IMG/VR virus record: IMGVR_UViG_3300019754_000001
Span: 1-64,000 of that record
Source of the DNA: a virus
Reading direction: 5' to 3' (one strand)
DNA: 64,000 nucleotides
Below the pieces are notes generated by a model that saw only the letters and a program-made list of their open reading frames with translations, did no database searches and was not told the origin of the DNA. Positions 4,052 through 62,442 of this stretch are shown one piece after another. Position 1 is the first letter of the stretch, and every line of letters begins with the position of its first letter. Both the position numbers and the translations under genes were made by a program.

Positions 4052-4193
4052 AGCCATAGAAGAAGACAGTAATTTTGAAAACTGACTAATCCTCGCGCAA
4101 CATTCAACACCTAAGACACAAGAGAGTGTAGAGGTAAAGAGAATTTCGCCGGAGGATTGAGCAGTGTGTAAAATTTAAGTCTATCTCTATGGC
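4052..4193. repeat. Inverted pair of the dispersed ~50-bp bipartite element (copies A 4052-4100 and B 4142-4193)
   Basis: AGCCATAGAAGAAGAC-N20-AATCCTCGCG and the reverse-complement copy GCCATAGAGATAGAC-N20-AATCCTCCGGCG. Confidence 0.85.
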
Positions 4194-4206
4194 AAATTAA
4201 TACAAG

Positions 4207-4368
4207 ATGCTTGATAGAACAAATCCAACTAATCCAGTCTTCAAGAAAGGAAGATTTAAAGGCAGCAGTGTAAGATATGTATGTGAACAGCATCTTTGGT
4301 ACATAATTAGCATGTTGAATGCTGGGGCTATTCACTTATACGATTTGCCTAAGGGATTTAAATTATAA
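4207..4368 (+). CDS. Small protein (53 aa, not in ORF track) with an F..G..KG..V......Y motif (DUF3820/ExoX C-terminal-like)
   Basis: MLDRTNPTNPVFKKGRFKGSSVRYVCEQHLWYIISML... Confidence 0.55.
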   Translation: MLDRTNPTNPVFKKGRFKGSSVRYVCEQHLWYIISMLNAGAIHLYDLPKGFKL

Positions 4369-4387
4369 ACAATAGAAAAAAGAAAAG

Positions 4388-4582
4388 ATGGAAGCAAAGT
4401 ACAAAATATTAATAATAACAATAGCTATACTAATGGCATTATTTTATGCTATTTTTAGCTTTGTTCTGGGGAGCATTTACTTCTTAGAATGGGGACTAGT
4501 TGCAAGAATTATATACATTGTAATAATGACAGTATTTATTACTATAGTGTGTAAACAATGGGGGGAGCGTTATGAAAAGTAG
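4388..4582 (+). CDS. 2-TM membrane protein (holin-like topology)
   Basis: Two TM helices and a charged C-terminus. Confidence 0.55.
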   Translation: MEAKYKILIITIAILMALFYAIFSFVLGSIYFLEWGLVARIIYIVIMTVFITIVCKQWGERYEK

Positions 4583-4793
4583 TGCTAGAAACCTATTCGA
4601 GTGGCTATGGCCATTCATAGTAATAATTTTCATTATGACATTTGTTAGTTGTGGGGAAGAGGAAACAACCCAACTTGACAGGGTTGAGATTAAAACCGAG
4701 ATAATAATGGAGGAAGCTCTTCATATCGAGAATAAGATAAACAAAATGAAGAGCCAACTAGATTCAATAGACAATTATGTTAAAAAAAATTGA
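4572..4793 (+). CDS. Putative lipoprotein with coiled coil
   Basis: Hydrophobic signal ending in lipobox FVS-C, acidic GEEE after the Cys, heptad-like C-terminus. Confidence 0.6.
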   Translation: MKSSARNLFEWLWPFIVIIFIMTFVSCGEEETTQLDRVEIKTEIIMEEALHIENKINKMKSQLDSIDNYVKKN

Positions 4794-5565: not shown

Positions 5566-5566
5566 C

Positions 5567-5734
5567 ATGTTCAAATTTATTGTAAAGTGGATAACAGGCG
5601 ATAAGACCTACACCCACACAATACGCTCAAGTTCGAACAACTTCTCCGAAAGAAGAGGGAAACGAACAAGATGCTCCTATAAAAGGGGAACTCTCGAAGG
5701 TTCTACGCGAACCAAAAGAGGTTAATACGGCATA
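5567..5734 (+). CDS. Small hypothetical protein (55 aa, not in ORF track)
   Basis: MFKFIVKWITGDK...EVNTA* immediately after the previous stop. Confidence 0.5.
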
Positions 5735-5782
5735 GCCCAACCGCCGATAGTGTTGGGCACTTACATCTTAATATATAAAGAG

Positions 5783-6738: not shown

Positions 6739-6742
6739 TAAT

Positions 6743-7315: not shown

Positions 7316-7325
7316 GGTAGCCAAT

Positions 7326-7403: not shown

Positions 7404-7419
7404 CTTTAAATTACTGATA

Positions 7420-22220: not shown

Positions 22221-22847
22221 ATGGGTAAAGAAAAAGAAGCAACATCTTTTAAAATAGCACAAATTAACAAGTTTACATGCGGCAAGATAGGAAAATTCAC
22301 CATTCCAGACTCTGAAGATGTAGGTGCACTTAATAGAGAAATTCACGATGCTTTCCTATCAGAGGAGGGGGATTTTATAGGTGATTTTAAACTAGGGTTG
22401 GCCTATCTTACAAACAATATGGTTGTCTGCTTAACTAATCCTGTAGGTGTTGGAGTTGTGTTAAATAAACAAATAACCAACGAAAAGTTTATAAAAGATT
22501 ATAAAGAAACTAAAGAATTAGAAGACGCTGACATTAAAGGTTATTTTGGATACTCTAATAATGGAGGTCAACTTTTCACATTAGGAAATAGAATATTTGA
22601 TGCTGAGTATATACCAGTAAGAGAAGACTATGATGAAAATGAGTGGTTAACTTTTGAATACATGAGAATTGTTGCTGCATCTAACATGGTTAGAGAAAAA
22701 AGAATAACAGGAGATGAAGCATTAGAGCAAATAACAATAACTTCAGTTATTCCATTTGAGATGAGAGGTAAGGAGGTTATAAAATTCTGGAGTGATGCTA
22801 AAAGAGCAGCCATAAACCTATCAGAGTACTTAAATAAAGATTTTTAA
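22221..22847 (+). CDS. Hypothetical phage protein
   Basis: Long ORF. Confidence 0.75.
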   Translation: MGKEKEATSFKIAQINKFTCGKIGKFTIPDSEDVGALNREIHDAFLSEEGDFIGDFKLGLAYLTNNMVVCLTNPVGVGVVLNKQITNEKFIKDYKETKELEDADIKGYFGYSNNGGQLFTLGNRIFDAEYIPVREDYDENEWLTFEYMRIVAASNMVREKRITGDEALEQITITSVIPFEMRGKEVIKFWSDAKRAAINLSEYLNKDF

Positions 22848-23011: not shown

Positions 23012-23778
23012 TGTATTACAGTAAGAGAGATAAGGCTTTTGATGTTCTAAATGCAATATTAGGATTCCAACAAGTAAAAAATAATGCAGACTACTGCCTT
23101 GTATGGATGAAGCAAATGGTACACAAACCAAATAGAAAGTTTCCAACAACAGTGTGGGCAAAAACTTTAATGAAGAGAGAAGATGTAATGAAGCACTTCA
23201 AAACACCCCTCAAGAATCTAAAGATAGATTCACTTTATATGCTTGATAGTGAATTTTGTACAAAGTGGATAACTACTGAGGGAGAATCTAAGAATTTTAT
23301 TAAAGCTATTATACCCTTCCCAACGTCAGAATTGACTGGGAGGGTATTTAATGTGCAGATAAATCAGTATTCTAATGACATACCTGAATCTGTAAAAGAG
23401 AGGGCATTAATAGAAGGACTAACTAATGAAGATCAAAAACAAATACTCATCGAATATACAAAGAAGAGTAGGGCGCATACTTACTGGGGTTATGGTAATG
23501 AGAAGAAACTTGTACCTCTATTTACTTTAGGTAGTAAAATGAAATACCCAATATATGAGGAGAAAATAATTGTGGAGGGGGAAGCCAATCACACTATACT
23601 AAACTCTATAGGGATAGATACATCAGACTTCCCTTATAGATTAGACTCCAGCATCATGAAATTAGATGCAATAACTAAATATTTTGGTAAAGCAGCCGTA
23701 GAAGAAGACAGTAGATTTGCTCTACGCTCAATCTTCGGCACTAAATGGAAAGATAATGATTATAGGAATAGCAGGTAG
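23011..23778 (+). CDS. Hypothetical protein
   Basis: Long ORF; its 3' end carries repeat copy G. Confidence 0.75.
   Translation: MYYSKRDKAFDVLNAILGFQQVKNNADYCLVWMKQMVHKPNRKFPTTVWAKTLMKREDVMKHFKTPLKNLKIDSLYMLDSEFCTKWITTEGESKNFIKAIIPFPTSELTGRVFNVQINQYSNDIPESVKERALIEGLTNEDQKQILIEYTKKSRAHTYWGYGNEKKLVPLFTLGSKMKYPIYEEKIIVEGEANHTILNSIGIDTSDFPYRLDSSIMKLDAITKYFGKAAVEEDSRFALRSIFGTKWKDNDYRNSR
23694..23740 (+). repeat. Bipartite element copy G (inside CDS)
   Basis: AGCCGTAGAAGAAGACAGTA-N16-AATCTTCGGC; first 20 nt are 19/20 identical to copy A, ungapped. Confidence 0.85.
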
Positions 23779-24412
23779 GACTGGAGTTGGCAAAGACACT
23801 CTAGCTTTAGCAATAAAACAAGTAGGAATTGAAAGCTACGGAATAGAGTGGGAGATTAGAAGGTTCTCGGCAGTTACAAAGAGTATAGTAGCTAGGATGC
23901 TAGGAATATCTGAAGAACTAATGGAGGATAGAGGTATTAAAGAAATGCTATTGGCAGATGCTCTAAGGAAAAATGCCGCCGAGATTAAGCAGGGGAGAGA
24001 ATTACTACTTTCTTCTATGGCTTTGGATAAGGTATTAGAATTAAAGTTTTATAAGTACAATACTGTAAAAGGACTACTTAATGACTTTTATAAACTAATG
24101 GAATCTGAATTTGATCAAAATATATTAATCTTAAACGAATTAATATACTTAAGAGAGAATGAAAATAAGAATATTATATACACAGACATTAGAGACCATC
24201 AAAAGATAGAGTTAATAAAAGATTTAAAAGGGTTGAATATAATGGTAAGTAGAAATAATGTACCAAAGCTTAAAATGGAAAATATGGTAGATTTCTTAGC
24301 TGTTGATATGTATATAGTTGATAAAAAATTAGAAGATTTAGATCTAGTGGCTAGAACAATAAATATAGCGGCCAGTACAACAAATGAATACGATAACAAA
24401 TCAAAAATATAA
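23756..24412 (+). CDS. Deoxynucleoside monophosphate kinase
   Basis: MIIGIAGRTGVGKDT, RRFS, IYTDIR motifs. Confidence 0.8.
   Translation: MIIGIAGRTGVGKDTLALAIKQVGIESYGIEWEIRRFSAVTKSIVARMLGISEELMEDRGIKEMLLADALRKNAAEIKQGRELLLSSMALDKVLELKFYKYNTVKGLLNDFYKLMESEFDQNILILNELIYLRENENKNIIYTDIRDHQKIELIKDLKGLNIMVSRNNVPKLKMENMVDFLAVDMYIVDKKLEDLDLVARTINIAASTTNEYDNKSKI
23972..24022 (-). repeat. Bipartite element copy C (inside dNMP kinase CDS)
   Basis: Reverse complement AGCCATAGAAGAAAGTA...CTGCTTAATCTCGGCGG; ungapped against copy D. Confidence 0.85.
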
Positions 24413-34313: not shown

Positions 34314-34361
34314 AAAAAAAGGGGAACCCTACCATTACGGTAGAGTTCCCCTATTTTTTTT
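34314..34361. terminator. Bidirectional terminator at the convergence of the early and late modules
   Basis: A7-GGGGAAC(C)CTACC-loop-GGTAG(A)GTTCCCC-T-tract. Confidence 0.9.
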
Positions 34362-37300: not shown

Positions 37301-38961
37301 GGTATGGGGTCTCCATTCTTATCTTTAGCCAAGTCACTTATAACAGTTCTAGTTAAATTGAGAAGTGTATTATCTAATTCATTTAGCTTAGCTTCAATTC
37401 GTTCCGCTTCGTCAGTTCGGGGAGAATCTTCAAGCCTATAAATAGGTTTACCTGAAGACTTGTTAATACCCTTGACTTCTAAAACTTGACTGACCATGGA
37501 GCGGAGGGCAGATATCTCCTCACTAGCTTGTTTAACATCTGTTACAGTTACTCTTTTGTTACTCGTTAATACACCCTCTATATTAGATATACTTTTTTCT
37601 GCAATATCTATTACATTTTTAACTAAGGCGCTCTTTTTTAATTTCTCTATATTTTCTTTTATCTCTTCTATTCTAACCATTACGGATTCCTTAGTCTCCG
37701 GATTCTTACTTATTGAATTATAAAGACTGTTCTTTCTAACTTTTAATTCATTTATAGCTTTAGTTAGAATGGCATCAGAAATCGGGTCTATATTACCATC
37801 AGTGTCTTCTCCCCCAAAGTAGCTTGACTCAAATACATCAGTAGATACATGGTCGTCAAAGAACATTATATCATCATCTATTAATTCTTCATTCTCTATT
37901 AAAGACCCTTCATAGTCTTCAACTGTATCAAAGGCCGCATTAACATTATCATTAAGACCATTAAAAAAGTCATCGTCATCAATATCGTCTTGAGACCTAT
38001 TATTAGTCTGTCTATATCTAGCCTCCCCTTCCAATATCTTTCTAAGCCTTGCATTGTTGTTTTCTAGCTTATTTGTGTATAAGTAATCACTAGTTGTATT
38101 TAATATTGCATGCAGTGCTGACCCTTTATTTACACTGATATTTAACAGTCCACTAATATAGTCTAATATACCTTCCCACACTGACTTCTTAGAGTTGAAT
38201 TTAATACCATTTAAAAAATCTCTAAATACACCTTCAGTTAAGGCATAAGATAAAAACTCATCAACACTTTCAATTACTACTGTATCAAGTCCATAACTTT
38301 CCATTAAGTTCCGGTCTTCCAGTAGTCCTTTTACATGTTCGTATACCTCATCTATTCTTTCTTTAAATATCTGCTCTTCCTCAGTTTTAGGGTTTAGTAA
38401 TGCCGCCACTGTAATAACATGTAGCATCTCATGAGTGGCTGTTAATCTAAACTCTTCCTTACTCACTGTCTTATCTAAAAATAATCTTATCTTGTCGTTT
38501 TCTATCACTTCTATAAAACCTGCTGTGCCTTCAGCTCTATCTTCATCTGTGAGTAAAGTAGTATCGTTTGTGTATTCTAAAACTGTTCCAGATTCTTCGA
38601 CTTTAGATACTAGCTTATCGAAGAGGGGGTAGTTTGGGTCTTCTGAATCTACTTCTCCATAGTCTTCAGTTAGGTTACTTAAGGTGAGGGGCTCTTTACC
38701 AATTATTTCGTTTACTATTCTATCGACACCTGCTATTGATTCTATTAGTATTTCTTTATCTAGTGGTATATCCACTCCATCAAACGTATCCCAAACCTTA
38801 TAAGCCATATCCATAGCTACCTTATCATTACCTTCTCTTAGGGCTCTTTCTCCCTCATTTCTAAATTCACTATTAGTTAGCGGTTTACCATCAAATAGTG
38901 TTACAATTTCGTTGAACTCAAAGCGAGCTTCACCGTCATTTATATTTGGACATTTTGCCAT
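34360..38961 (-). CDS. Giant virion cargo protein with zincin metallopeptidase domain
   Basis: 1533 aa; THEMLH...VDEFLSYAL; HGNYD C-terminal region; adjacent to vRNAP. Confidence 0.85.
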   Translation of the reverse strand: MAKCPNINDGEARFEFNEIVTLFDGKPLTNSEFRNEGERALREGNDKVAMDMAYKVWDTFDGVDIPLDKEILIESIAGVDRIVNEIIGKEPLTLSNLTEDYGEVDSEDPNYPLFDKLVSKVEESGTVLEYTNDTTLLTDEDRAEGTAGFIEVIENDKIRLFLDKTVSKEEFRLTATHEMLHVITVAALLNPKTEEEQIFKERIDEVYEHVKGLLEDRNLMESYGLDTVVIESVDEFLSYALTEGVFRDFLNGIKFNSKKSVWEGILDYISGLLNISVNKGSALHAILNTTSDYLYTNKLENNNARLRKILEGEARYRQTNNRSQDDIDDDDFFNGLNDNVNAAFDTVEDYEGSLIENEELIDDDIMFFDDHVSTDVFESSYFGGEDTDGNIDPISDAILTKAINELKVRKNSLYNSISKNPETKESVMVRIEEIKENIEKLKKSALVKNVIDIAEKSISNIEGVLTSNKRVTVTDVKQASEEISALRSMVSQVLEVKGINKSSGKPIYRLEDSPRTDEAERIEAKLNELDNTLLNLTRTVISDLAKDKNGDPIPLKDLTEIKDVGLLWSAVMDSSRVDNKLVSYLSGVLKDTNRNIMAEFEETIGIQLTKILEETGFDKNGKDFNERVLQKDADGNITKNLVDVFSQSYYDWKSKQRVELGQLNRVKDARKKNQKKKAYQDFMDNIYLPNYNILFGNDNEDARNEEIAKIKDLLGEVVGERLVSSMEKKITSYNKSKVAVVETFQRYHDAGRVGFKTIAEYKGKIAEWESYNNPMQLYEELTSNNVETTNFTSVTRFLSYAPKSEVNGQKSEWYDKDYEFIQNNPETYGKLYNFITENINNLKDYFPPHVAYALQHNHLPQVNKDILEKVRDEGIAGVITGKSLLDRVYGGLSEEQDDLDSQLRDSNGKPIKSVPIKFTKDTVGKLRVALSKAEKDYIRQESVFNGHITSKGATEASIKIQKDILDVVKGTRDSIKSDYDREFNSKSSDVIKAFKMFSFSAINYKRKSAVEDILTIGKEMVEKSIEIEKSKSNSIIRNKIGKGEKLNVVRQLEYEIDNILYNKGHNKGGILSTKVGLTKEARKTLKALKKEKNELELDMMHGRVEKEDYEERKLSIQARKDAVQDTGFVSPVKAFDKALKLTFFTSLGWNASSALTNTLYGYISNSVEAASGRYFTKQELNRAMGVLKHSMKRSATGRVDDVSTKVRSLMAKYGIMFDLLEDASGSSKIKEHNKKLGLAAPMELTKRAEYLNQAAVLVANLMHTKVQTVDGTEVSLWESYDNHANMSEEVLDSEQWDTMYDATKSNSFTKKRNNLIQLIKRVHGNYDPSSPMQAKKYLIGRATLALKSWIAEGIATRIETYKEDDQMGDPVKGRYRTYKDLGFANSVKIMKSILLKNLAVGEEFNADNKEMQTDLDNMRRNLKEIQWFLMMSAAMLIANLAFDDEDEKAEGYRLAYKTVSRLQDDVSLYMNPKALMDMFKNPSPLLRTIDNVVNIPSVVTKYATSDDARHDETYLIKGTFRAIPGLAMFQRWL

Positions 38962-38991: not shown

Positions 38992-39042
38992 AGCCATAGA
39001 AGAAGACAATATTTCTACTATTGTAGTAATCCCGGCGGAATT
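38992..39042 (+). repeat. Bipartite element copy D (intergenic)
   Basis: AGCCATAGAAGAAGACA (17/17 with copy A)-N18-TAATCCCGGCGGAA. Confidence 0.88.
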
Positions 39043-45000: not shown

Positions 45001-47844
45001 TACAACCTCACCTGTTCCTATCATATTATTTATAACATAATCAGCAGCTATTGCAGTTAAAGCATAGGCATCTGGATTAGTTATATTTCTTTTTTCTAGA
45101 GTTTCAGTATCCAAACCCATTCTTTTTAAGTACTCTTTATTTAATGTCTTTGTTATTGGATATGATTTAAAATTTTCATTCAATATATCAAACACATGCT
45201 TAACTTCTTGCTGTATATCCTTATGTACCTCATCTAGCATAAGTTTTACAGTATCGTTATTAAATATTATACCATTAGAACTTAGTATTGAAGTAGCTGG
45301 GTCTGTACTATCTAAAAGTTTATTAAGTGAAGGAAATAAATAAAACCTGTCACCACCCTTAAGAAGTGCTATATCCATTCCTTTTCTACTGTCTTCTTTT
45401 CGTTTATTTATAACTCTAGTAATTCGTTTAGCTTCTCCTCTTATAAGATCTTCAAGAGCATTGTTTACTTCTATTCTTGTTATAGTATCACCTATAAGAC
45501 CCTCCTCATACTTATATTTAATATCTTTTCCATTGGCATCTTTTAACTTAGTATTATTATCCTTGTCTGCAAATATACCTCTAGGGCCAGTTATTCCATC
45601 AGTTTTACCTACCCCTGTTATATTGATACGTGGCCACTTAAATATTATATTTCTACTCTTATCTGAAAACGTTAACGGCATTAGGTGCATGAATTTATCA
45701 TTACCGTTATTGGCCATTAAAGATAATCTCATAACGAGTTTCTCTAGTGGGGATGCTTCTTTTCTTGTTATGTTAACATTATTAGAAGTAGATATTGCAT
45801 CTAAAACCCCCATAACAATATCCCCCTCTTTTAAAGCACCTCTCTTTAATAGTTTAACAACTCTAGAAGTTGAAGTAAAGTCTCCATCTTCCATATCTTT
45901 CATAAATTTACTATCTTTAGTTGTTAACTTCTTTACTAACTGTGTGGCAAAACTAGGTAATCCGTATTTAGCTACTTGGTTATCTGAAGAGTTTAGAAAG
46001 GTCTGGTCTACGTGTTCTGCAGATTCTTCATAAAGTGTCTTTAATACTATTTTTACCATCCTATCCTCTAAAGGGTTAGAGTTGTTACCAACAAATGAAG
46101 AGGTTGTGTCAATATCTGTTATGTTTGATAGTGATGTTATAAAGTTAAACCCTCCCTCATTATCTGTAGATATAAATGTTATGGGATTCATACCTGACTT
46201 TAAGAATTTAGCAGCCTTATCACTTCCATTTTGTATATACTTTTGTGGGTTTCTAATAAGGTCTTCATATTGAGAGGAGGTAAGCTTAATACCGTATTGA
46301 TCTAATATATCCATAATCTCAACAGCGTTATCAAGCATATGCTGTACACCAGCATTCCTATCAGCTTTACTAAAATCAATACCAAACTTCCTTAAAGCCT
46401 CAACAGCTAAAACACCAACTCTATTAGATAGCTCAATCATCTTACTTTCATCTAGAACAAAGTTGTTATTTGATATCTTTAATATCCCAGCCTTGCCTTC
46501 AGACTCTTCATGCTTTTCTATTTGATGCTCTCTAGCTAGGTTTAAGGAACTTCGGGTGGCGGAAGTGGAATCAGTATTTATAATCCTATACTGTCGTTCT
46601 ACTGTATTTGGAGTTTCAAAATCTCCATCATTTAGTTCTCTAGAGTATTCTTTAACTGTAACCATGTTATGATTTTGTAGATTAGTAGCTACATAGAATA
46701 AGTTTCTAAACCTATTATACTCTGGTGTAGTTGGGTCTTTTAGCTTTGCAGCTATAGACATTAAGACTGGGTCTTGTGTCTTCTCTAACATTTCAACCCT
46801 CTGACTTATCGTACCGTATGAATCAGCTAGGGCATTAGTTATTTTACTAAATACTACCTTGTGGCTATAAGTATCAATGAACCCTAAAATGTTTGCTTTG
46901 AGTTGGGGAGTGTATTTCTTACCATCTTGAACATAAGTTACTTTAGGTATATTCATAAGATAGGTTTTAAATACAAACCCTACAGTATCTGATACTGGGA
47001 TAGCCATTTTCTTAGCATCATCCCAAACAGCACCAAAGACCTCTTCACCAAACATATCTGAATCATCTTGTGTTTCAGCATTCTCTGTTACAGTCTCAGT
47101 TGTTAGTTTAGTATCATCTTCTAAGTTATTATCTTTAGTAGTTTCGTCCTTATCTTTATTTATCTTTTCTTCCTTATACCCTTCAGATATTAATCTACCT
47201 TTAAGTAGCTTTTGAAAAGACTTAAAAGCATCAGGCTCAAGTAGCTTATTAACGGAGGATAGAAAAAGCTCTCCCTTGGTGCGTTGTTCTTTTGTTATTG
47301 TTTTATTTGCCAGTCCTTCTTTATATTCTTGTTGTGCTGTCCTTAACATTTTTTCCATTTCAACAGCAAGTGATTTAGTACTAATAGCATCATTAAATAA
47401 GCTCTTTAGTACAATACTTTCTCCCCACCCCAAGATAGATTCTACTTCTAAAGTATTAAATCCTTCTATTAGCGTATCAGGGTCTTCTATATATTCATCA
47501 GCTTCTAATCCATAACCTTCTACTCTTTTAATGACTTCCTCATATACAGGCTCTCCATTTTCATCTACTCTTCCGTTATAGTTTTCAGGATTAAATTCCC
47601 AATCTCCATAGGTATCTTTATACTTATCTGTTCTTACAGCTATTGATACTTCTACAGCTCTTTTTATATTTTTTGTTTTATCTAGAACAGTCTTAAATAA
47701 ATAAGATGCTTCACCATTAGATGCTTTTTCAAATGGAATCTCATCTTCTTTTAAGTTATACTTCTTAAAAAGACTTAAAGCAGTATCCGAAGATACTACT
47801 TTAGTCAATGAGTTAAATACTTTTGTTCCTTTAGGACACTTCAT
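39097..47844 (-). CDS. Virion-packaged single-subunit two-barrel RNA polymerase (crAss/phi14:2 gp66-like) with C-terminal accessory domains
   Basis: 2915 aa; RIPNQGFSSM and GSDFDVD catalytic loop (~43333-43347); LLHEIAH zincin; DUF4326-like FGNP...YHDWL...LKGKKL...HATVL. Confidence 0.92.
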   Translation of the reverse strand: MKCPKGTKVFNSLTKVVSSDTALSLFKKYNLKEDEIPFEKASNGEASYLFKTVLDKTKNIKRAVEVSIAVRTDKYKDTYGDWEFNPENYNGRVDENGEPVYEEVIKRVEGYGLEADEYIEDPDTLIEGFNTLEVESILGWGESIVLKSLFNDAISTKSLAVEMEKMLRTAQQEYKEGLANKTITKEQRTKGELFLSSVNKLLEPDAFKSFQKLLKGRLISEGYKEEKINKDKDETTKDNNLEDDTKLTTETVTENAETQDDSDMFGEEVFGAVWDDAKKMAIPVSDTVGFVFKTYLMNIPKVTYVQDGKKYTPQLKANILGFIDTYSHKVVFSKITNALADSYGTISQRVEMLEKTQDPVLMSIAAKLKDPTTPEYNRFRNLFYVATNLQNHNMVTVKEYSRELNDGDFETPNTVERQYRIINTDSTSATRSSLNLAREHQIEKHEESEGKAGILKISNNNFVLDESKMIELSNRVGVLAVEALRKFGIDFSKADRNAGVQHMLDNAVEIMDILDQYGIKLTSSQYEDLIRNPQKYIQNGSDKAAKFLKSGMNPITFISTDNEGGFNFITSLSNITDIDTTSSFVGNNSNPLEDRMVKIVLKTLYEESAEHVDQTFLNSSDNQVAKYGLPSFATQLVKKLTTKDSKFMKDMEDGDFTSTSRVVKLLKRGALKEGDIVMGVLDAISTSNNVNITRKEASPLEKLVMRLSLMANNGNDKFMHLMPLTFSDKSRNIIFKWPRINITGVGKTDGITGPRGIFADKDNNTKLKDANGKDIKYKYEEGLIGDTITRIEVNNALEDLIRGEAKRITRVINKRKEDSRKGMDIALLKGGDRFYLFPSLNKLLDSTDPATSILSSNGIIFNNDTVKLMLDEVHKDIQQEVKHVFDILNENFKSYPITKTLNKEYLKRMGLDTETLEKRNITNPDAYALTAIAADYVINNMIGTGEVVQLLSDPAQYFKRDEFGTWTTYLKRLGSLIGTGMDPSTEVAEMVNGKRIINNYENIAYFVLNDKYTSRMYNKYKKSLSPEIAKGYKNVNSTDAQELVTLKSYIVFMAQRGKIKEEVYDSINKKIMESYKTNKPLLLNSGEDAEIARLTQMDIIPQKPLYTSNNFNKETSSNDTMIVKSSFFPLIPQYTKDLEIDMIREKMEREERKYLIDDNNEEKTGNLTTVHLAFESAVKAGSRDKWDVFNYENDHEGNSRAIGLNKDKIDLMEPTIVKREGLKTQQEEGNHEDYKTISVSQMNQLITMGISEMAGFDLFIDDHVIKDGKGIREMRDKIKVRMMEEGLGKLEHSFGIKNGVVTNQAKFRDAFKEILVNEGISDNELQSLKFKHGAFAWPLDMSASRNKIVQKINSAISKKILRPELRGRSFVQGAAFGIKGKMNVSKLSDNENNVIFTSEFDTELKAGDIILNKKGKVIGIQKMQVILPWMFNEDINNFIGSGGKLDMSKIDKELLSLIGARIPNQGFSSMSNIEIVGFLPPQMKSLIILPDEITAQMGSDFDVDHLYTYMYNYKNVEDADGNKTLKIISEENVTAKEESKLLQNQYIRLHEAVLSHPDITKKMLTTLDLPDFQNFAKVAKAKEEEQYRDGTKRFVPLGIEYSEKEYNNAQAGKIGVAIEANALVFLAMAENKGLYPIDKDGSKLFLEVESEGEVLTLSDIDLGTSGGGVRSNADSLMMLLSEAVDNANNGNLAYLGYDAVNSGVYNLLIQMVDKGETQSKNKALSAETVALIMTQPAIQEITEELKTTSNKLGKRNSSEDMAIIQSVLKSYEENRVEGPLTTEELKSQSNSAQYKVASIFAALYNPAKTIGIANSVLKIETKGVGKDISSIVQKVKIYSEVINGKSDIVGLDNLVLNGDGELTEVGYGVYNSLNTARAIWGTNIGGFPMSVGATPKFNTLLDMVLDNNSSLSYSDIPFISKQLHESMLSHLLLKKTDESSLFKDNGEEIDKKQLMVDMLYGSNSLANRINRYKRTNNPIGSLFISNLIPSQGKTLDAPSFVEINTFALTQNAQTMLIASWMELYRGNAEQRSLALDLVRYSLMEGAKFSPRSIKMIRPLKILIESGHGLGLNSTLLNNINPVEVFKEYVEHYPKSTPELNKIDGIENKNNYDPDTNKVLYTDKVVFSSKNSNPPLYAHVRGKNKDSLYERVPMEDGFIYLEMNTKGHKKMSENLGEEYEGKSVFDYNNPNVKEKVANYRADKTVALQGDPVTGYFSNGTEGVSSFMSALDNITTPHLIPAARILKDLKWLMPNGIKYVKDPTLQHRGQQVGGSISLNVNKMGSRNLAPNIFKAELEEVLLHEIAHTQTSQLVDRYISGQLKGDEFRDIRIAMGNIEAVRAHLADIHKREINKIKANIKEKKESDLKDVGRYEPLTNLNEFMVALTNREFINFHKETPYKESTFGERILKYMTNLFENMIGAKLKKGTALYEAFGNFFIATSGFNEIEKDKQTKNVVYDTVTINGKTYGTGYNNSVYEIRPGNDLRRITNPAITKRVAVEVLLNKEPHRKVTTLGKEFAVMPTDSIFDLTTNEYVFASNTMIDKQSRNIIMGEYMEVAEKIRGLEEKLAVQQTLFDSPPKHEKLHAISKMGKTTANETVVIRGMNGIPSFMTDKGLDYQGMEKYAKENGMVYTLRKGGEKHFGNPSSHMSSTSAIIPAGTIAESVQNYHDWLTTDKFDKEYPQLMARKEWIVDLINSGKLKGKKLLYWKELGQPSHATVLSYLINNGIDSEKENGTTKFILSMDKTGKDQYKAARATAYVFANFGKDFNSRAYNPKSSSTLTYAFDARNNNIPVNSETYTKDDKVFASISGGVGAHGRSEAKFKRTVEMLSVAVEAGASILLDSSVQAYSNKYVNGQFSEEHLIRWVLSKGYKEFPFANGKVSEYKPRVNTSSMTSNVNPSLVQVRDVIRDEHKKC

Positions 47845-47847
47845 ATG

Positions 47848-50800: not shown

Positions 50801-53800
50801 AACTCTTTTCTCTCTAGTTCTGCCCTTTTCTTTAGAGATGCTTTTAGGGTTGAGGAGCCTTGATTAGAGGTAAAATACGCATACTGATTAAATGCATAAT
50901 CTTCAGCTACTTGTAATTGCTTTTGATATATTTTATCAGATGCTTTTTGTATTACATTATTTTTACCATTACTTATATTTCTTAAACTTCTTATATTTTC
51001 TTTTAACTCTCTTAATATCTCTGGTGGAAATTTATTATCAAACTCTATCTTATCAACATCATCTTCAATTTCATCAATTAAAGACTGTTCTATATCAAGT
51101 CTCTTTCGTTTTAAAACTTCCTCCAAGTACTCTATTGATTTCTCTGTACCTACCTTTTCTAACTTACTATGTTCTTTTTTCTCATATCCTGCCAATACCT
51201 TCTTTTGGTTGTCTAACTCTTTCTTAACATTGTCAATTGTAGTGTGTACATTTTTCTCACGTTGGCTTCCAAACCATATTGCTTTATTTATCTTTTCTTT
51301 TAAGTTACTTGGTATCTTTTTATTACTCTCTCTATTGTTTTTAAGACTGCTGTGAAAACTCAAGAGTTTATCATCAATCACTTGATTATACTCTCTATTA
51401 ACATCAACACCGTCAACTATCTTAGGTTCTTTCTTTTGTTTATATAACTCATCTATGTATTGTTGTTGAGTTTCTTCCGAAGCACTTAACAAAGTTTTTA
51501 AAGACTCAATAGCGTTATACATAACCCCCTTACTTTCTTTGGGTCTATTTTCCTTAGCCGCTTTATTAGAAAATTCAGAATCCATTCCTTCCAGCCCCTC
51601 TTTATATACTTCATCATATAATACTGAAGTAACATAATCGGTGGCTTCTTTAGTTAGGGGGTCACTATTAGTATCGTCATTCTCTATTTGCTTTTGCATC
51701 TTTTTATTTAGCTTGGCAAATCTTTTATTGTTTATCCATATATCAAGTATCTTCTCAGGATATTGGTATACTTCATCACTTGAACTATCAAATTTACTCT
51801 TTAATACTTCATACTGTTCTCTTGTAGCCTTAAGTTCACTTATAAACTCGTTATTGACTTCTTTAAAATCATCAAGATTTCCATCCGAATCCTTAGCTTG
51901 AGCATATCCTGCAGCCATTGCACTACTCTTCCCAGAATACTTAACAATGTTATCCTCTATTATTTTAGCTTGTTCCTCCATAGAGATAAGCATTTCACTT
52001 TGCTTCTCGCTCAATCCTCCGGCGGCTTCACCCTCCCCCTTTAACTTGTCAATGCTTTTAAGCACCTCATCAAGATCTTTTTTGTATTCTTCTCCAAGGT
52101 CGTTAGTGTTACTCATCTGATTAGCCTCCCCCAGTGTTTGCTCTATATTCTCACTAAAGCCTTGAGTGACGCTATTAAACTTTGTCATATCAAACAAGTC
52201 TTGTTTAACCTCATCTAAAGACCTACCATCTTTAGTCATTCCACCATTCTGAGCAGCTTCTGCCATGTCCTGGTAGCTTTTCTTTACAAAGTCTATATCT
52301 TTTATTATAGTGTTTCTATATTTTTCATAGTCTTCTTCAGCTTTTGTTCTAAGTCCCTTAGCTGTTCCAAATTTCCATTCCTTGACAGGCTTCTTTGTTA
52401 CAGTGCCATCTGCATTTTTAACTTCTTGATATATTATCCCATTCTCATCATACTTGTTTGTTCTATTTGGAGTTCCTCTCTCCCTCCCGGCCTTAAGAGC
52501 ACCTCCCATAAAGGCTCCCCAGAAGGCAGCTTCTAATCCTTCTTTAGAAGTAGAACCTTTAAACCAGGCGTCTAAGTATGTTAGGTTATCAATATCTGGA
52601 GAGTTACCTGTGAGTTTATTTACTTCCTTATCTACTTGTGCACTTCCAACCTCTGCAGCTCCCTCCAACATAGCTTCCTCAAAAGCTTCTGATAGCATTT
52701 CTTTAGGGTAGCTTCTAATACCTACCTCTTTATTTACTGCTTTCTTTAATTCTTTTCTTATTACATCATCAGATACTCCTGAAGCTTTTAACCTTTTAAC
52801 ATACTGCTCTGTTGTCTCTGTTGCTCCTTTAATTCCTTTATTCTTAAGCTTAAGTAGATTCTTTTGCTTTTTTAGTATGGATGAAGTTGTCATCCTTGTA
52901 GCAGTTAAAGGAACTAGGTTTGTAACCATTCCGAGGGCAGTTCCTAACATTACAGATGTATGGGCAGCCTGTGTAGCTATTTCTAATTTATCCTCCTCTG
53001 ATATACCTTCAACACCTGCCATCTTCTCAATAGCTGCATCATATACTTGAGCCCCTGTTCTACCAGCCTCTGCAGAACTTAAAACTGCTGCATTGGCTAC
53101 TTCTGATAACTTAGGTACAAACTTTATTGCATTATATCCTTTTATTGTTTTGCTTGATAATAGTGCGGCCTTATTAGCCATTTTAACTGATAGCTCTAGT
53201 CCTTTAGAAGTTCCAGCAGCTACCTTAGCAGCCCTGGATAGAGCCTTACCTGTAACAGATGCACCTCTAGCCATAGCACCTCCAACGCCTCCAGTAACAG
53301 CTTCAACAGCCATAAAAGCACCAACAGATGCTACTCCATCTGATATGTTATTAACCCAATAAGCATAGTCAGAAAAGTCAGACGTTCCAGGACTTTGTTG
53401 ATATACATCTCTTTTAAGACCGTTAATCATCTCTCCAAAAGCAGTTATATCATTAGTGTAAGGATTATCCACAGTATATCCAAATATACCTTCCTTTACT
53501 ATAGCTCCTAGTGTTCCAACATCTGTAACTATCTCTCCTACAAATCCAGGTAATGTATTAGTAATACCTCTCCATGTTTGCTCTGTCCAGTGCTGTTCTT
53601 GGGCTCTAAGACTGCCTAAATTATCTAAATCAGTATTCTTTACTAGGTCTAAATCTACATAGCTTTTAAACTCTTCTAAATTAACCTTTTCAGGGTCTAT
53701 ACTATTTATACTTATTCCACTAGAGGGTCTTAATTTAATTGTATCTTGTAGCTCTTCTATCTCAATCTCTCTAGCTGTTTTATTGTTTGGATTGCTTTTA

Positions 53801-58222: not shown

Positions 58223-61200
58223 TCATAATTCTGTTGAAGTTGAATAGAATGTTCTAGTGTTGTATATTCTAATTTCATCTACTGCTATAGAGTTATCATA
58301 TATAAGTTTAACTACTAATTGCTTTCCTCTTATTCTTTCGGTAACTAATCTACCACCCTCGTCCAGCTGTCCTGTTTTTAATCTAGGCATTGCGAGATTA
58401 AAGCTATTAAGTGAATTTCTAGTATTAAATAAGTAATCTTTATATGGAAGTATTTTTACTCCTTCTGCCTCATATATAGTTCTATTTGATTCTGTAAATA
58501 CTACATCATCTATATCATCTGTATATACCTTAACTGTATCAATTGTTGTATATTCAGTAGGAACTTCAGCATTCTTTACATATATAGGAATATGTTCTGT
58601 TCTAGCCCTATCGCCATAGCTTGTTATCTCACTTATTGTTTTATTACTGATGTTACTAGCTTCAAGGTATGAAAATTTATTGAAAGTATCAATACCGTAT
58701 CTATATATTTTATTGTGTATTGACAGTGCGTCAAGTTGCTTATTTATAGGTAATTCATTTCCTACTTCATAGGACACTACAAATGGATAAACTACTCCAA
58801 AAAATTCCCCTTTGTTAGTATTAACTTTATCATATTCATAAAGTGACCTAGAATCACCACTAAGTACAAACTGCTTAAACCTTTTTATATAAATACTTGG
58901 GATAAAAGACATATAAGAAATTACAGCATTTATAGGCTCATTTATCTTAAGAGTATAAGAGTCTGGCTCTTCTATGTATTTAGACATGTTAATAGAGTCT
59001 CCACTTCCAAATGTATAACCACTTACATAAGTAAATGCTACACCACCTTCAAAAATTTCATAAAGTAGATATTCTCCACTTTGTCCCTCACCACTTAAAG
59101 TATATATATTACCAATATTCATTAACAGCTTTGAAGAATCTCCATAAATATAGGTATACCCTATAATACTACCAACATCAAAATATATATCATCATATAA
59201 ATAACCATTTGCTTCATTTCTTATAGTAAGAAGCATGTTAGAAGTTATAGAGTCATACCCTCCTATTAATGTAGTATTTAGATCTATTGTTTTTTTAGCA
59301 TGACTTGCTATTCCCATCAGGTCTGATATAGGCTCTAGACTACTACTATATCTATATATCTTTTTTTTATTTATATCCATAAAGTATATATAAGAATTAC
59401 TTGTAAGAGCTTCATTTAATTTTTGAATCCCTACATTATCACTTATATAAGTAAAGCCATCGAGCACTGTACTTATTCCCATAAGAGCTGTAGTACCATC
59501 ATCCTGCGGTATTTGTGTCCTAGTGTTTATTCTTGCTAGTGACATACCACTATCTTGAAAAACATACACATTCCCATTCTTCTCTATCATATGATTTACA
59601 GGGCCTAGCCTATTTTCAGCTGAGTTGAAGTTATTTACCCTAAAGCTTAAAAATGAATCTAATGTTTCGCCATTAACTTTAGTATCGCTGTATGCTACTT
59701 TAGTTGGAAATTTTTCTAGTTGGTTATTACTATAATCTTTTTCAACAGCATAGGAGCCAGTGTCTGTTTGACTATAAACACTATTATATTTATACAAAGG
59801 TGGATAATCTACTTCAGTACCATCATCTTTAAGATAGTTACCCTCCTCTCTAAACTCTCCAGGTATTGTGTTTAGTGTTGACTCCGTAGGGTTTTTACCT
59901 ACAAAAAGATTAGTATTTACAGTACTTGCTACAGGGAAAGCTATCAATTCAGCATACTTTGCATTACTGGTTAGTGCTGAGTAGGGATTAATTACCCTTT
60001 GTAGTTCAAATAGATTTGGAAATACATCTCCAGTATAACCTGTTTCAGCTATGTAATTTAATTCAGGTATGTATATTTTTGCAGGTTTCCTTGGAGTACC
60101 TTGAAGTACGTATATAGAAGATAATCTACTTTGGTAACTTCCTCCCCCATAAGGATAAACATCTCTTTTTATTGCAAAGTATCCCAAGTGTGTTGAATCA
60201 AGTAACGCCATTGCATTGGTAAGTGAATCACACTTTATCCCTATTGCTGTAGCACCATCTCCTTGTACAGTAAACCCAGAGCTACTATCACTACTAGTCC
60301 ATACAAAATCATGCACCTTATTTAAAAATAAGTCCCCATCTATAGATACTTGATTTCCAGGCTCTATTGTTTCACTATCTATTATATCCTTAATATTATC
60401 TGAATCATATTCTATAGGCTCAAAATGTGGATACTTTGCATAGGCTCCAAAAGAGGATGGATAGCTTAGGGCTAGTGCATTGAAAAAGTCTCCAGTTGGA
60501 TTGAAGTATTCATTGGCCCCAATATTGGAAAGTTTTCCTATTAACTCTATTTTCAGTCCTGTAACTTTACTGTTCTTAAATACTGAAATCTCTGGACTGT
60601 AGAAGTATAGCCTGGTATCTATCTTATCACTTCCACTTAGGCCCTCCCCATTATATATAGTACCTCCAGCCGTAGGGTTTGATGGTACTTTTGTTGTTGT
60701 TGTTGACGTTAGATATGAATTGCCTGCATTTACTTGGTCATAAGTAGCAGCCCCGACAGCAACACCCTCATATAGTATTCTCCTATCTGTAAAATCTCTT
60801 TTAACTACTGCTAAACTAAAATAAGAATCATATAGTTCAGGGTAATCAGTTACATTTATATCAACTGCTAAAATAAGACCAAATGCTTTTATTTCATCTG
60901 TATCATTAGAAGCTGACATTTCATCATGTCGTGGTGTCCTAATATCACCAATCCACTTAGCAGAACTTCTCCTAAGATATTTATCATGCACAACTACAGC
61001 TACTCTATATATCTCATCAAATTGGCAGAATTGTGTAAGGAGGGTAGAATCTGTTCCATTAAGAAGTGATTCTGTATCTCCAACTGTTATACTTCTTAAA
61101 AGGAAAGAATAACTAACATTCTTACCTTCCCCTCCCAAAACTCCTGCTTGATTAAATTTATAACCACTGGCATAGTTTGTATTGAAAGGATTAACTAAAT

Positions 61201-62407
61201 CATCTGTTAAATCAAAATCTATATTATCTTTCCAATTAACATCTGTACTATCTATATAAACATTCCCATCAGAATTAGTCAATACTGCTTGGCCACTACT
61301 ATTAAATCTATAAGCTCTTGCATCAAAATCAATATCAAAATAATCTTCTTCAAGATTAGCTAAAAATAAAGTATTATCTTTAATAGCGTGTGTCTTTGGA
61401 CTTATAAATGGTTTTAATAGATTCAACTCTCCTATATCTACGGTTGATAAGATACTATCATATTTAACATCCTGTAGTAGTGAAGTTCCACTCCCTTCAT
61501 AAATTATACTAGCCTCCCCTGTACCATTTAATTCTGAAAACCAAACACGTAGTACTTGGCAATTTGTTGCCATTTTAGCTGAAGGTATAGATAATCCAAC
61601 AGTAGTATTAATGTAACCAGTATCATTAGTACTATATTCTCCAAATACTTTATTTGTTGTTGAGTTATTGATAGTTGAACTAATAGGTGTTAGCCCTGTT
61701 AGTTGAACCCATTCAGTATAACCACCATTCTCATATCCTCTTATGTAGTAAATGTAAACACCTACCCTTAAATTACCACCTATATAAGATGCTGTTCTGA
61801 ATGGTATATAGGTTTGAGAAGGCATTATATCTAAATCTTCTGAAGTTAAAGAATTTATCCTTGTGTAAGACCCTTGAAGTAGGGGGTCTTCACTAACCTC
61901 ATTAGTAAAATCAGGAGCTATATTCAGATGCTTAAGTTTAGTATTACCCCCCTCACCTTTTGAGTAAAAGTAAAGTTTTACTAAGTCATCCTTCTCTCTA
62001 TTAACAAATGCATCTACTATGCCGTTACTTAAAATGCCAGCATATTTATCATCAATTAATACTATTCTAGTGTAACTAATATCTCCATACTTCAATAAAT
62101 CTATTTTAATGTTTCCGGTATTATTAGTATCTTTATAAATTAAAATTATATCATCTTTATCGTTTATCCCTTTACTTATAACCCAATTATTGTTGTAAGG
62201 GCTTGAAGCATCAGCAGTTGAAGTTACATCAGTAGGCCATACTACTGACATTAATGTATTACCATTTGAATTAACTGCTACTCCTTTACTGTTATTCTCA
62301 TCTTTATAAATATCTCCATTTAACATATACCTGTACTTACCTTGTTGTAAGTGTAGGGATGGAGAATCTTTATCTATTCCGCTTGTAAATATATTAAACT
62401 GTTCCAT
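58223..62407 (-). CDS. Tail muzzle/stabilization protein (P22 gp10-like)
   Basis: F.SG.DKD N-terminus, KDNTLFLAN, DEIYR...KWIGDIRTP, GDVF, RIRG C-terminus; ATG start 62407 preferred over TTG 62431. Confidence 0.8.
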   Translation of the reverse strand: MEQFNIFTSGIDKDSPSLHLQQGKYRYMLNGDIYKDENNSKGVAVNSNGNTLMSVVWPTDVTSTADASSPYNNNWVISKGINDKDDIILIYKDTNNTGNIKIDLLKYGDISYTRIVLIDDKYAGILSNGIVDAFVNREKDDLVKLYFYSKGEGGNTKLKHLNIAPDFTNEVSEDPLLQGSYTRINSLTSEDLDIMPSQTYIPFRTASYIGGNLRVGVYIYYIRGYENGGYTEWVQLTGLTPISSTINNSTTNKVFGEYSTNDTGYINTTVGLSIPSAKMATNCQVLRVWFSELNGTGEASIIYEGSGTSLLQDVKYDSILSTVDIGELNLLKPFISPKTHAIKDNTLFLANLEEDYFDIDFDARAYRFNSSGQAVLTNSDGNVYIDSTDVNWKDNIDFDLTDDLVNPFNTNYASGYKFNQAGVLGGEGKNVSYSFLLRSITVGDTESLLNGTDSTLLTQFCQFDEIYRVAVVVHDKYLRRSSAKWIGDIRTPRHDEMSASNDTDEIKAFGLILAVDINVTDYPELYDSYFSLAVVKRDFTDRRILYEGVAVGAATYDQVNAGNSYLTSTTTTKVPSNPTAGGTIYNGEGLSGSDKIDTRLYFYSPEISVFKNSKVTGLKIELIGKLSNIGANEYFNPTGDFFNALALSYPSSFGAYAKYPHFEPIEYDSDNIKDIIDSETIEPGNQVSIDGDLFLNKVHDFVWTSSDSSSGFTVQGDGATAIGIKCDSLTNAMALLDSTHLGYFAIKRDVYPYGGGSYQSRLSSIYVLQGTPRKPAKIYIPELNYIAETGYTGDVFPNLFELQRVINPYSALTSNAKYAELIAFPVASTVNTNLFVGKNPTESTLNTIPGEFREEGNYLKDDGTEVDYPPLYKYNSVYSQTDTGSYAVEKDYSNNQLEKFPTKVAYSDTKVNGETLDSFLSFRVNNFNSAENRLGPVNHMIEKNGNVYVFQDSGMSLARINTRTQIPQDDGTTALMGISTVLDGFTYISDNVGIQKLNEALTSNSYIYFMDINKKKIYRYSSSLEPISDLMGIASHAKKTIDLNTTLIGGYDSITSNMLLTIRNEANGYLYDDIYFDVGSIIGYTYIYGDSSKLLMNIGNIYTLSGEGQSGEYLLYEIFEGGVAFTYVSGYTFGSGDSINMSKYIEEPDSYTLKINEPINAVISYMSFIPSIYIKRFKQFVLSGDSRSLYEYDKVNTNKGEFFGVVYPFVVSYEVGNELPINKQLDALSIHNKIYRYGIDTFNKFSYLEASNISNKTISEITSYGDRARTEHIPIYVKNAEVPTEYTTIDTVKVYTDDIDDVVFTESNRTIYEAEGVKILPYKDYLFNTRNSLNSFNLAMPRLKTGQLDEGGRLVTERIRGKQLVVKLIYDNSIAVDEIRIYNTRTFYSTSTEL

Positions 62408-62442
62408 AGAGGAAAGTATGTCGCGCGACAACTGCTTAATCT
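62404..62442 (+). repeat. Bipartite element copy F (overlaps the muzzle start codon)
   Basis: CCATAGAGGAAAGTA-N13-CTGCTTAATCT, ungapped against copy C; lacks the terminal GGCG. Confidence 0.7.

What the first reader, a model, noticed from the sequence alone, without database searches (positions are those of the whole stretch)
4052..62442. Dispersed ~50-bp bipartite DNA element: 7 copies at 5 loci, retained even inside genes
Seen in sequence: consensus (A)GCCRTAGA-RRWAG/AAG...(GCTY)AATC-YYC-GGCG with essentially fixed spacing and a variable middle. Copies: A 4052-4100(+), B 4142-4193(-), G 23694-23740(+), C 23972-24022(-), D 38992-39042(+), E 51978-52025(+), F 62404-62442(+). A/D share 17/17 nt plus TAATCC at identical offset, A/G share 19/20, and B/E share 11+16 nt. 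G, C and E lie within unrelated CDSs, so selection acts on the nucleic acid. The loci are ~20, 15, 13 and 10 kb apart. Every locus has a copy whose CGCCG-to-TCTATGG direction follows local transcription. Inference: a protein-binding site with two boxes about three helical turns apart. Candidates are phage-RNAP promoter or antitermination sites, strong gyrase-type sites, or signals pacing genome entry, packaging or replication.
Basis: partly seen in the sequence, partly recalled or inferred. Interest (0 to 1): 0.85.

Follow-up and report, generated by a model that had tools for sequence, protein, structure and literature searches.

The report
Dispersed bipartite signal, orphan crAss-like phage
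An uncultured crAss-like phage with no close relatives carries ten near-identical copies of a 50-base two-box DNA signal, evenly spaced around its genome and kept even inside genes; it is most likely a phage-specific promoter, but this is unproven.

Summary
The window is the first 64 kb of a 93.9-kb circular crAss-like phage genome. All seven reported copies are real. Three more lie beyond the window, and a decayed eleventh sits at window 6-53. Ten copies score 33-43 bits on a two-box matrix; the next best site scores 16, within the shuffle range. The signal has a box 1, a 20-nt weakly conserved spacer of fixed length, a box 2 and often a GC clamp.

It acts at the DNA level. There is no Rfam match, folding is no better than shuffles, and in-gene copies are never reproduced by synonymous-codon shuffling.

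Eight of eleven copies point with local transcription. Three loci are back-to-back pairs, one in the divergent region between the two gene arms. Three copies end 0-33 nt before a start codon. The seven loci are unusually evenly spaced (P about 6e-4).

Best reading (0.45): a phage-private promoter class, not the host-type promoter known from phi14:2. Rivals are replication, nicking or genome-entry sites, regulator roadblock sites, an RNA element, or a selfish repeat.

No relative carries the motif, so conservation could not be tested. The scan has noted other, sequence-unrelated dispersed signals in other crAss-like phages.

The parts
6..53 (+). Copy K, decayed. Box 1 keeps 11 of 15 positions and has lost CC and AG. 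Box 2 (TTAATCC) and the GC tail are intact and nearly identical to the tail of copy A. It is intergenic and would point leftward, antisense.
   Evidence: sequence; it fails the box-1 threshold in the PWM scan
4052..4100 (+). Copy A (class 1: AGCCATAGAAGAAGAC...TAATCC plus GC tail). It is the left half of a back-to-back pair that fills a 160-bp intergenic gap. The inferred direction is leftward, antisense to the early genes.
   Evidence: 41.3 bits
4142..4194 (-). Copy B (class 3). It is the right half of the pair and points rightward. Box 1 ends 15 nt before the ATG at 4207.
   Evidence: 34.4 bits
23694..23742 (+). Copy G (box 1 of class 1, box 2 of class 2). It lies in the last 85 nt of a 255-aa ORF, just before the dNMP-kinase start at 23756. 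The inferred direction is leftward, antisense. It carries ACG in place of ATG.
   Evidence: (43.0 bits)
23972..24022 (-). Copy C (class 2), inside the dNMP-kinase-like gene. It points rightward with the genes, and its ATG is in frame.
   Evidence: (40.1 bits)
38992..39042 (+). Copy D (class 1), in the 135-bp gap between the virion RNA polymerase gene and the 1533-aa gene. It points leftward with the genes. Box 1 ends 32 nt before the ATG at 38961.
   Evidence: 36.3 bits
51976..52026 (+). Copy E (class 3), inside the 2006-aa cargo gene at codons ~615-630. It points leftward with the gene. Its ATG is in frame (Met630).
   Evidence: (33.4 bits)
62402..62442 (+). Copy F (class 2, no GC tail), at the ring-protein/muzzle gene junction. 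It points leftward. Its ATG (62407-62405) is the conserved M-E start of the muzzle protein.
   Evidence: gene call of 1394 aa; 33.1 bits
39097..47844 (-). The 2915-aa gp66-type virion RNA polymerase gene. It is the only polymerase found in the genome and is a candidate reader of the signal. This link is inferred, not shown.
   Evidence: DFDVD at 1500; GSDFDVD aligns with the catalytic GSDFDID of phi14:2 gp66

Best explanation
The element is a double-stranded-DNA recognition signal private to this phage. It is most likely a class of phage-specific promoters. In this reading, transcription runs from the GC clamp and box 2 (GATTRAGC on the transcribed-sense strand) towards box 1 (YCTTCTTCTATGGCT) and starts in or just after box 1. 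Single copies (D, E, F, H) and copy I re-start transcription every 10-14 kb along the long leftward arm, which holds the packaging, head, tail and cargo genes. Copies B, C and J do the same on the rightward arm, which holds the early and replication genes. On the rightward arm and at the arm boundary, each rightward copy is paired back-to-back with a leftward class-1 copy, which makes divergent promoters. The leftward partners A and G would produce antisense RNA over earlier genes, or they could prime leftward DNA synthesis. The protein that reads the signal is unknown. It could be the injected gp66-type polymerase, or host polymerase redirected by a phage factor. What is shown: the copies, their geometry, their orientation, and that they act at the DNA level. 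What is inferred: promoter function, the start point and the reader protein.
For: (1) The class is discrete and high in information. Ten sites score 33-43 bits, far above the roughly 14 bits needed to pick 10 sites in 2 x 94 kb, and there are no intermediate sites. Promoters of phage-encoded polymerases show this pattern. (2) Orientation: all five copies on the leftward arm or at its head (D, E, F, H, I) and three on or heading the rightward arm (B, C, J) point with the genes. All five intact class-2/3 copies do so. (3) The pair I/J lies back-to-back in the 1-kb divergent gap between the arms, with the box-1 ends 153 bp apart. The A/B pair exactly fills a 160-bp gap, and D fills a 135-bp gap in an otherwise tightly packed genome. 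This geometry excludes terminators reading in that direction, and it excludes RNA elements that need an upstream promoter. (4) Box 1 ends 15 nt (B), 32 nt (D) and 0 nt (F) before start codons. (5) The signal acts as DNA, not RNA or protein: no Rfam hit at E<=10, fold z-scores averaging about -0.5, and in-gene copies never matched in 200 synonymous-codon shuffles each. (6) Host-type promoters are not obviously used. Sigma-70-type matches equal the shuffle count, and the Bacteroidota TAnnTTTG word shows no strand bias. The phage does encode a gp66-type polymerase. Related two-barrel phage polymerases are known to use conserved private motifs (PMC10770324).
Against: There is no transcript data. 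Three of eleven copies (A, G, K) point against the genes. Copy E lies 4.1 kb upstream of the next gene start, in the middle of a 2006-aa gene, although gene boundaries were available nearby. No T7-like polymerase or sigma factor was found in the ORFs scanned. In phi14:2 the gp66 polymerase transcribes only early genes and has no detectable motif. Gene direction, GC skew and probable replication direction coincide in this genome, so orientation cannot separate transcription from replication. The even spacing of the loci is not something promoters need. No relatives exist in which to test conservation.
Confidence: 0.45

Rival explanations
1. The element is a DNA-transaction site that has nothing to do with starting transcription. 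It could be a replication priming or origin signal, a site-specific nick, or a mark read during packaging or genome entry, and it is placed at regular intervals along the chromosome.
For: The seven loci are far more evenly spaced than random points (gaps 10.4-19.7 kb, CV 0.23, P=6e-4). Every locus has a copy on the + strand, whichever way the genes run: eight same-sense copies around the circle. Copy E sits near the midpoint of the D-F interval rather than at a gene boundary. The I/J pair lies at the minimum of cumulative GC skew. The sense sequence lies on the presumed lagging-strand template in 8 of 11 copies.
Against: Four of seven loci sit exactly at gene boundaries, and three copies end 0-33 nt before a start codon. 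A spacing device does not need this. GC skew here is confounded with gene direction. No nick, origin or packaging data exist. The three minus-strand copies are unexplained by a one-directional process.
Confidence: 0.22
2. The element is an operator or roadblock array. A phage regulator binds the oriented sites across the genome and gates elongating polymerase, as stoperators do in Cluster A mycobacteriophages (recalled from memory, not checked here).
For: The sites are dispersed, asymmetric and mostly co-oriented with transcription. They occur both in short gaps and inside genes. The two boxes lie on one face of the helix, which suits a dimer or a two-domain protein.
Against: Known stoperators are short (13 bp) and numerous (more than 20 copies). 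This element is about 50 bp, with about 40 bits of information and only ten copies. No repressor or integrase was found, and the phage looks strictly lytic. Back-to-back pairs in a divergent gap are not what roadblocks need.
Confidence: 0.1
3. The element works as RNA within the mRNAs, as a processing site or a translation-start element. The conserved AUG of box 1 would serve as a start codon.
For: The ATG or ACG of box 1 is in frame with the host gene in all four sense coding copies (C, E, F, H). In F it is the true start of the muzzle protein. Most copies can be drawn as an imperfect hairpin with a GCC/GGC closing stem.
Against: Folding energies do not differ from dinucleotide shuffles (z from -2.3 to +1.1). 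No Rfam family matches. The ATG opens only 2-7-codon ORFs in B, D, I and J and is ACG in G and H. The pairs I/J and A/B leave only 41-60 bp for a promoter upstream of each copy. Three copies would be antisense. The shared frame can also be explained by Ser-Ser-Met being easier for a protein to tolerate than Leu-Leu-Leu-Trp or Phe-Phe-Tyr-Gly.
Confidence: 0.08
4. The element is a selfish miniature inverted-repeat or REP-like element that has spread within the genome, including in-frame insertions into genes.
For: Three loci are inverted pairs with box 1 outward, like terminal inverted repeats. Some copies share flanks beyond the boxes, which implies descent by duplication or conversion: the A and K tails, the B and E tails, and A and G over about 30 nt.
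Against: The dNMP-kinase gene aligns through copy C with a homologue without a matching insertion. The G/C pair encloses the conserved P-loop start of that gene. There are no consistent target-site duplications (by eye). The spacer has diverged while the boxes and spacer length are held, which indicates selection on the boxes. The element is absent from every other genome searched. No transposase was found.
Confidence: 0.05

Closest known systems
Middle/late promoters of crAss-like phage phi14:2 and 'candidate genus VI' phages (Drobysheva et al., bioRxiv 10.1101/2020.03.07.982082)
   Same: Both are extended multi-box motifs repeated in a crAss-like genome. Both occur at the head of the leftward arm and inside the cargo/muzzle block, are mostly in the sense direction, and have some copies in coding sequence.
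   Different: The phi14:2 motif is a host-type promoter: A-tract, TTG, about 19 nt, then TAnnTTTG. I read it upstream of g070, g075, g108 and g110. The present element has neither box, has a different spacing, and its sequence is unrelated. It also has antisense partners and even spacing.
Promoters of phage-encoded polymerases: the T7 group (23 bp; from memory) and the private motifs of the two-barrel polymerases of Thermus phage P23-45 (PMC10770324)
   Same: They are discrete, information-rich, phage-private signals in many copies. They follow transcription and can lie inside upstream genes. The polymerase family of P23-45 and phi14:2 is the one encoded here.
   Different: This element is twice as long and bipartite, with a 20-nt weakly conserved spacer. 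No T7-like polymerase gene was found. Nothing links the element to the 2915-aa enzyme. No start sites have been mapped.
Early hairpin promoters P1-P3 of coliphage N4, read by the injected virion polymerase (from memory; review PMC4496689, cited in scan notes and not read here)
   Same: Both phages inject a giant polymerase. Both signals have conserved flanks around a short inverted repeat (AGCAGT...ACTGCT in several copies here).
   Different: N4 has three copies at one genome end, and the small hairpin is essential. Here the copies are genome-wide, and hairpin stability is not above shuffles. Separate G-run boxes in the early region are better candidates for early promoters.
Transcript-primed origins: T7 primary origin and T4 oriF/oriG (from memory)
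   Same: In those systems, promoters placed next to easily melted DNA serve as origins. Back-to-back pairs here could prime both leading strands. The I/J pair sits at the GC-skew minimum.
   Different: This is purely an analogy. No replication data exist, and the skew is confounded with gene direction.

Membership tests
Host sigma-A/sigma-70-type promoter (including the Bacteroidota -33 TTTG / -7 TAnnTTTG type used by phi14:2 middle genes) | Conserved -35/-10 or -33/-7 hexamers at 16-21 nt spacing upstream of the start | tested here: not met
   The conserved boxes match neither consensus. The position where a -35 would fall is the variable spacer. Only A and G hold a TAnnTTTG word in the spacer, on the opposite strand, and these two copies are related by descent.
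Phage-polymerase promoter (T7-like or two-barrel type) | A polymerase gene in the genome | tested here: met
   The 2915-aa ORF aligns with phi14:2 gp66 across the catalytic DFDxD region. No T7-like polymerase was found in the scans.
Phage-polymerase promoter (T7-like or two-barrel type) | Primary transcript 5' ends at a fixed position of the motif, and dependence on the phage enzyme | not testable with these tools
There is no cultured host.
N4-type hairpin promoter | A small stable hairpin kept by compensating changes | tested here: not met
   Spacer and whole-element folds are no better than shuffles in most copies.
Known structured RNA or ribozyme (Rfam) | A covariance-model match | tested here: not met
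   No hit at any copy, even at E<=10. Only four tRNAs reach the gathering score.
Intrinsic terminator | A GC-rich hairpin plus U-run at the end of a transcription unit | tested here: not met
   The terminator scan does not call any copy. The back-to-back pairs leave no room for a transcript to terminate.
MITE / REP-like mobile repeat | Insertion relative to homologues, target-site duplication, and presence in other genomes | tested here: not met
   There is no insertion at C relative to a homologue (a distant homologue, so weak evidence). There are no consistent duplications. Only chance singletons occur elsewhere.
Site-specific recombination (inversion) sites | Identical crossover cores in partner sites, and a recombinase gene | tested here: not met
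   The spacers differ between the partners of each pair. No recombinase turned up in the scans. Inversion of G/C would destroy the kinase gene.

The most novel reading that the evidence does not exclude
The element is the recognition signal of the crAss-type (gp66-like) injected RNA polymerase, or of a factor that works with it. It would be used genome-wide and not only for early genes. The regularly spaced, same-sense class-1 copies and the back-to-back pairs would couple transcription to a chromosome-scale process, such as drawing the genome into the cell or priming bidirectional replication. This would be the first defined DNA signal for that polymerase family in Crassvirales.
Probability: 0.15. 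Interest if true: 0.8.

Novelty: new variant of a known kind. Interest (0 to 1): 0.5.

Why it matters
crAss-like phages are among the most abundant viruses known, yet how they organise transcription is largely open. The injected polymerase of phi14:2 has no known promoter. This orphan genome offers an unusually clean signal: ten discrete copies with a defined architecture, two sub-classes and a strict geometry. The signal could be synthesised and tested directly with the recombinant polymerase or with host enzyme. The even spacing and the heterotypic back-to-back pairs suggest that one signal may serve both gene expression and a chromosome-wide process. If it turns out to be only a private promoter, it is an ordinary kind of feature with a new sequence.

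Tried and rejected
The Rfam search at gathering score and at E<=10 found nothing at the copies. RNA folding of all ten copies and of the spacers alone was not better than shuffles.

The host-type promoter reading was rejected after reading the phi14:2 promoters from the record and counting TAnnTTTG and sigma-70-type matches.

The search for relatives found nothing useful:
- The capsid protein finds no close kin in IMG/VR.
- The muzzle protein's best hit in 5.8 billion proteins is 33% identical over a quarter of its length.
- The stretch of the 2006-aa protein around E finds only itself.
- Eighty distant crAss-like loci (1.2 Mb) hold no copy of the motif and no comparable private repeat.
- Pattern scans of IMG/VR, JGI metagenomes and GTDB genomes gave only single chance matches.

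I also considered and dropped sigma-54 spacing, the IHF consensus, a lambda-type boxA/nut reading, a split Shine-Dalgarno, translational bypass and invertible segments. Each failed by inspection of the sequence.


Full report
**What the DNA is.** The window is bases 1-64000 of a single 93,904-bp contig whose ends overlap by 77 bp, so it was assembled as a circle. It is a crAss-like phage.
- The major head protein, portal and large terminase match crAss families.
- The muzzle protein, cargo protein 1 and ring protein 1 match Pfam crAss families.
- The capsid is at most 29% identical to cr108_1, IAS virus and phi14:2.
- The 2915-aa ORF aligns with the phi14:2 gp66 virion RNA polymerase. GSDFDVD lies opposite the catalytic GSDFDID.

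Genes run rightward from about 88.1 kb through the origin of numbering to 34.3 kb. This arm holds a gene-poor early region, four tRNAs, ligase, RNR, DNA polymerase, dNMP kinase and ThyX. Genes run leftward from 87.1 kb to 34.4 kb. That arm holds terminase, portal, head, tail, muzzle and cargo genes. GC and AT skew follow gene direction exactly and switch at 34.3 and 87-88 kb. The genome is tightly packed. Outside the early region, only about a dozen gaps exceed 50 bp.

**The observation.**
- Across the whole genome, CC[AG]TAGA[AG][AG][AT]A occurs ten times. Every occurrence has AATC 37-41 nt after the CC. The spacing is 38 nt in seven copies and 37, 39 and 41 nt in one each.
- The new copies are H (73747, +), I (87455, +) and J (87608, -).
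- An eleventh copy, K (window 6-53), keeps box 2 and a GC tail almost identical to A's, but it has lost the CC and AG of box 1.
- The two-box pattern occurs 9 times, against 0.047 expected in 300 dinucleotide shuffles.
- In a PWM scan the ten copies score 33-43 bits. The next site scores 16 bits, and the shuffled-genome maxima are 8.6-20.7. The class is therefore discrete.
- Column statistics give box 1 as agCCATAGAaGAAg.Ca.ta and box 2 as GcTtAATCc. A CGGCG-like GC clamp follows box 2 in six or seven copies, and the roughly 20-nt middle carries little information.

**Sub-classes and geometry.**
- Class 1 (AGCCRTAGAAGAAGAC ... TAATCC) comprises A, D, I and H. G has a class-1 box 1 and a class-2 box 2. 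All five lie on the + strand.
- Classes 2 and 3 (box 1 ending GAAAGYA or GAGATAR, box 2 GCTYAATCY) comprise C, J and F, and B and E.

I call the direction from GC clamp and GATTRAGC towards CTTCTTCTATGGCT the sense direction. All five class-2/3 copies then point with the local genes, as do D, H and I. A, G and K point against them.

Three loci are back-to-back pairs with box 1 outward: A/B, G/C and I/J. Each pair joins a leftward class-1 copy to a rightward class-2/3 copy. I/J lies in the 1-kb divergent gap between the arms. A/B fills a 160-bp gap, and D fills a 135-bp gap. Box 1 ends 15 nt before the ATG at 4207 (B) and 32 nt before the ATG at 38961 (D). In F, box 1 contains the ATG that starts the muzzle protein. 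That start matches the gene call on record (1394 aa) and the ATGGAA start of distant homologues.

**DNA, not RNA or protein.**
- No Rfam family matches any copy, even at E<=10.
- Folded as RNA in the sense direction, the ten copies have z-scores from -2.3 to +1.1 against dinucleotide shuffles, with a mean of about -0.5. The spacers alone are no better. My first impression of a covarying central hairpin therefore did not hold. What recurs is a degenerate inverted word (AGCAGT ... ACTGCT) that belongs to the two boxes.
- For the in-gene copies C, G, H and E, a leave-one-out PWM gives 22-40 bits. Two hundred synonymous-codon shuffles of each gene have medians of 4-11 bits and never reach the observed score. 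Codon choice is therefore tuned to the motif.
- At box 2 the reading frame differs between E and C/H, so no shared peptide is being conserved.
- The dNMP-kinase-like protein aligns through copy C with a distant homologue without a matching insertion.

**Spacing.** The seven loci are 19.7, 15.2, 13.0, 10.4, 11.3, 13.8 and 10.4 kb apart around the circle. Random points give so low a coefficient of variation (0.23) in 0.06% of trials, and so large a minimum gap in 0.01%. With K included, P is 0.009. Scan notes on other crAss-like genomes prompted me to test this.

**Interpretation.** Terminators in the sense direction are excluded, and so are RNA elements that need an upstream promoter. The reason is that the paired copies are separated by only 41-60 bp (A/B, I/J) and point away from each other. 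Divergent promoters fit that geometry.

The promoter reading also fits four other features: the high information content, the orientation rule, the placement in the few gaps, and the copies lying just upstream of start codons. By my estimate, three of eight sense copies within 33 nt of a start has a probability of about 0.003 for random sites.

The element is not the promoter known from phi14:2. That promoter, read from the record upstream of g070, g075, g108 and g110, is an A-tract, TTG and TAnnTTTG of the host type. Here sigma-70-type matches equal the shuffle count, and TAnnTTTG shows no strand bias.

The early region has its own candidate signals. These are runs of 5-9 G followed by TATAAT-like words at 87.80, 87.84, 87.97 and 88.99 kb and at window 109. 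The dispersed element is therefore more likely a middle or late class.

**Weaknesses of the promoter reading.**
- There are no transcript data.
- Three copies are antisense.
- E sits in the middle of a giant gene, 4.1 kb from the next start.
- No reader protein has been identified.
- The gp66 enzyme of phi14:2 transcribes early genes only.

Because gene direction and probable replication direction coincide, the orientation rule fits a lagging-strand priming signal equally well. The even spacing and the + strand copy at every locus favour a chromosome-scale process. One reading combines the two. As promoters, the back-to-back pairs could also prime bidirectional replication. In that case the leftward partners in the rightward arm would have a purpose. 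This is inference only.

**Relatives.** The phage is an orphan.
- The muzzle protein's best hit among 5.8 billion proteins is 33% identical over a quarter of its length.
- The region of the 2006-aa protein around E finds only itself.
- Eighty distant crAss-like loci (1.2 Mb) contain no copy of the motif and no comparable private long repeat.
- Scans of IMG/VR, JGI metagenome contigs and GTDB genomes gave only single chance matches.

**Verdict.** It is a real, selected, DNA-level signal with a striking architecture. It is most likely a phage-private promoter class (0.45). A non-transcriptional DNA-transaction site is the main rival (0.22). I file it as a new variant of a known kind, with interest 0.5.

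Noticed in passing
genome 87798-87990, 88994 and 89192 (L002:9798-9990, 10994, 11192); window 109-125: Runs of 5-9 G are followed directly by TATAAT-, TATAAA- or TTATTATA-like words. All are on the + strand and are concentrated at the head of the gene-poor early region. They are candidate early promoters and are distinct from the dispersed element. Two CCCCCAC words lie between copies I and J.
   Followed up: partly
window 47755-47770, 61086-61101, 62872-62887: The 16-mer TTTTAAGAAGTATAAC (gene-sense strand) occurs three times inside unrelated genes (vRNAP, muzzle, ring protein) with no extended similarity around it. The first copy directly follows a 12-pair hairpin at 47776-47803, about 40 nt into the polymerase gene.
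   Followed up: partly
genome 87203-87270 (L002:9203-9270): An 18-bp perfect inverted repeat (CTTTAATTTGTAACTTTG ... CAAAGTTACAAATTAAAG) lies in the leader of the first leftward gene. It contains a TAACTTTG word on both strands. An AAGAATAAGAATAAAG-type tandem repeat sits next to it at about 87320-87390.
   Followed up: no
window 34320-34352: A strong 15-pair hairpin with T-runs lies at the convergent junction of the two gene arms. It is a likely bidirectional terminator and the only convincing intrinsic terminator seen.
   Followed up: no
window 22221-22847: The 208-aa ORF matches Pfam Tad6 (type I Thoeris inhibitor) at E=4.7e-6, just at the curated cut-off. It is a possible anti-defence gene.
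   Followed up: no
window 62407 vs 62431: The muzzle gene most likely starts at the ATG at 62407 (M-E-Q, as in homologues), not at the first in-frame TTG at 62431.
   Followed up: yes
window 34360-38961: The 1533-aa protein downstream of the polymerase also holds a DxDxD word (DIDDD at 326). About 0.3 such words are expected by chance, so this is weak on its own.
   Followed up: no
window 60-106: To the right of copy K, on the + strand, lies a possible remnant of a rightward partner copy (GATTTAAT ... CTTTCTATGAC), about 9 nt too short. If real, K would once have been a fourth back-to-back pair.
   Followed up: no
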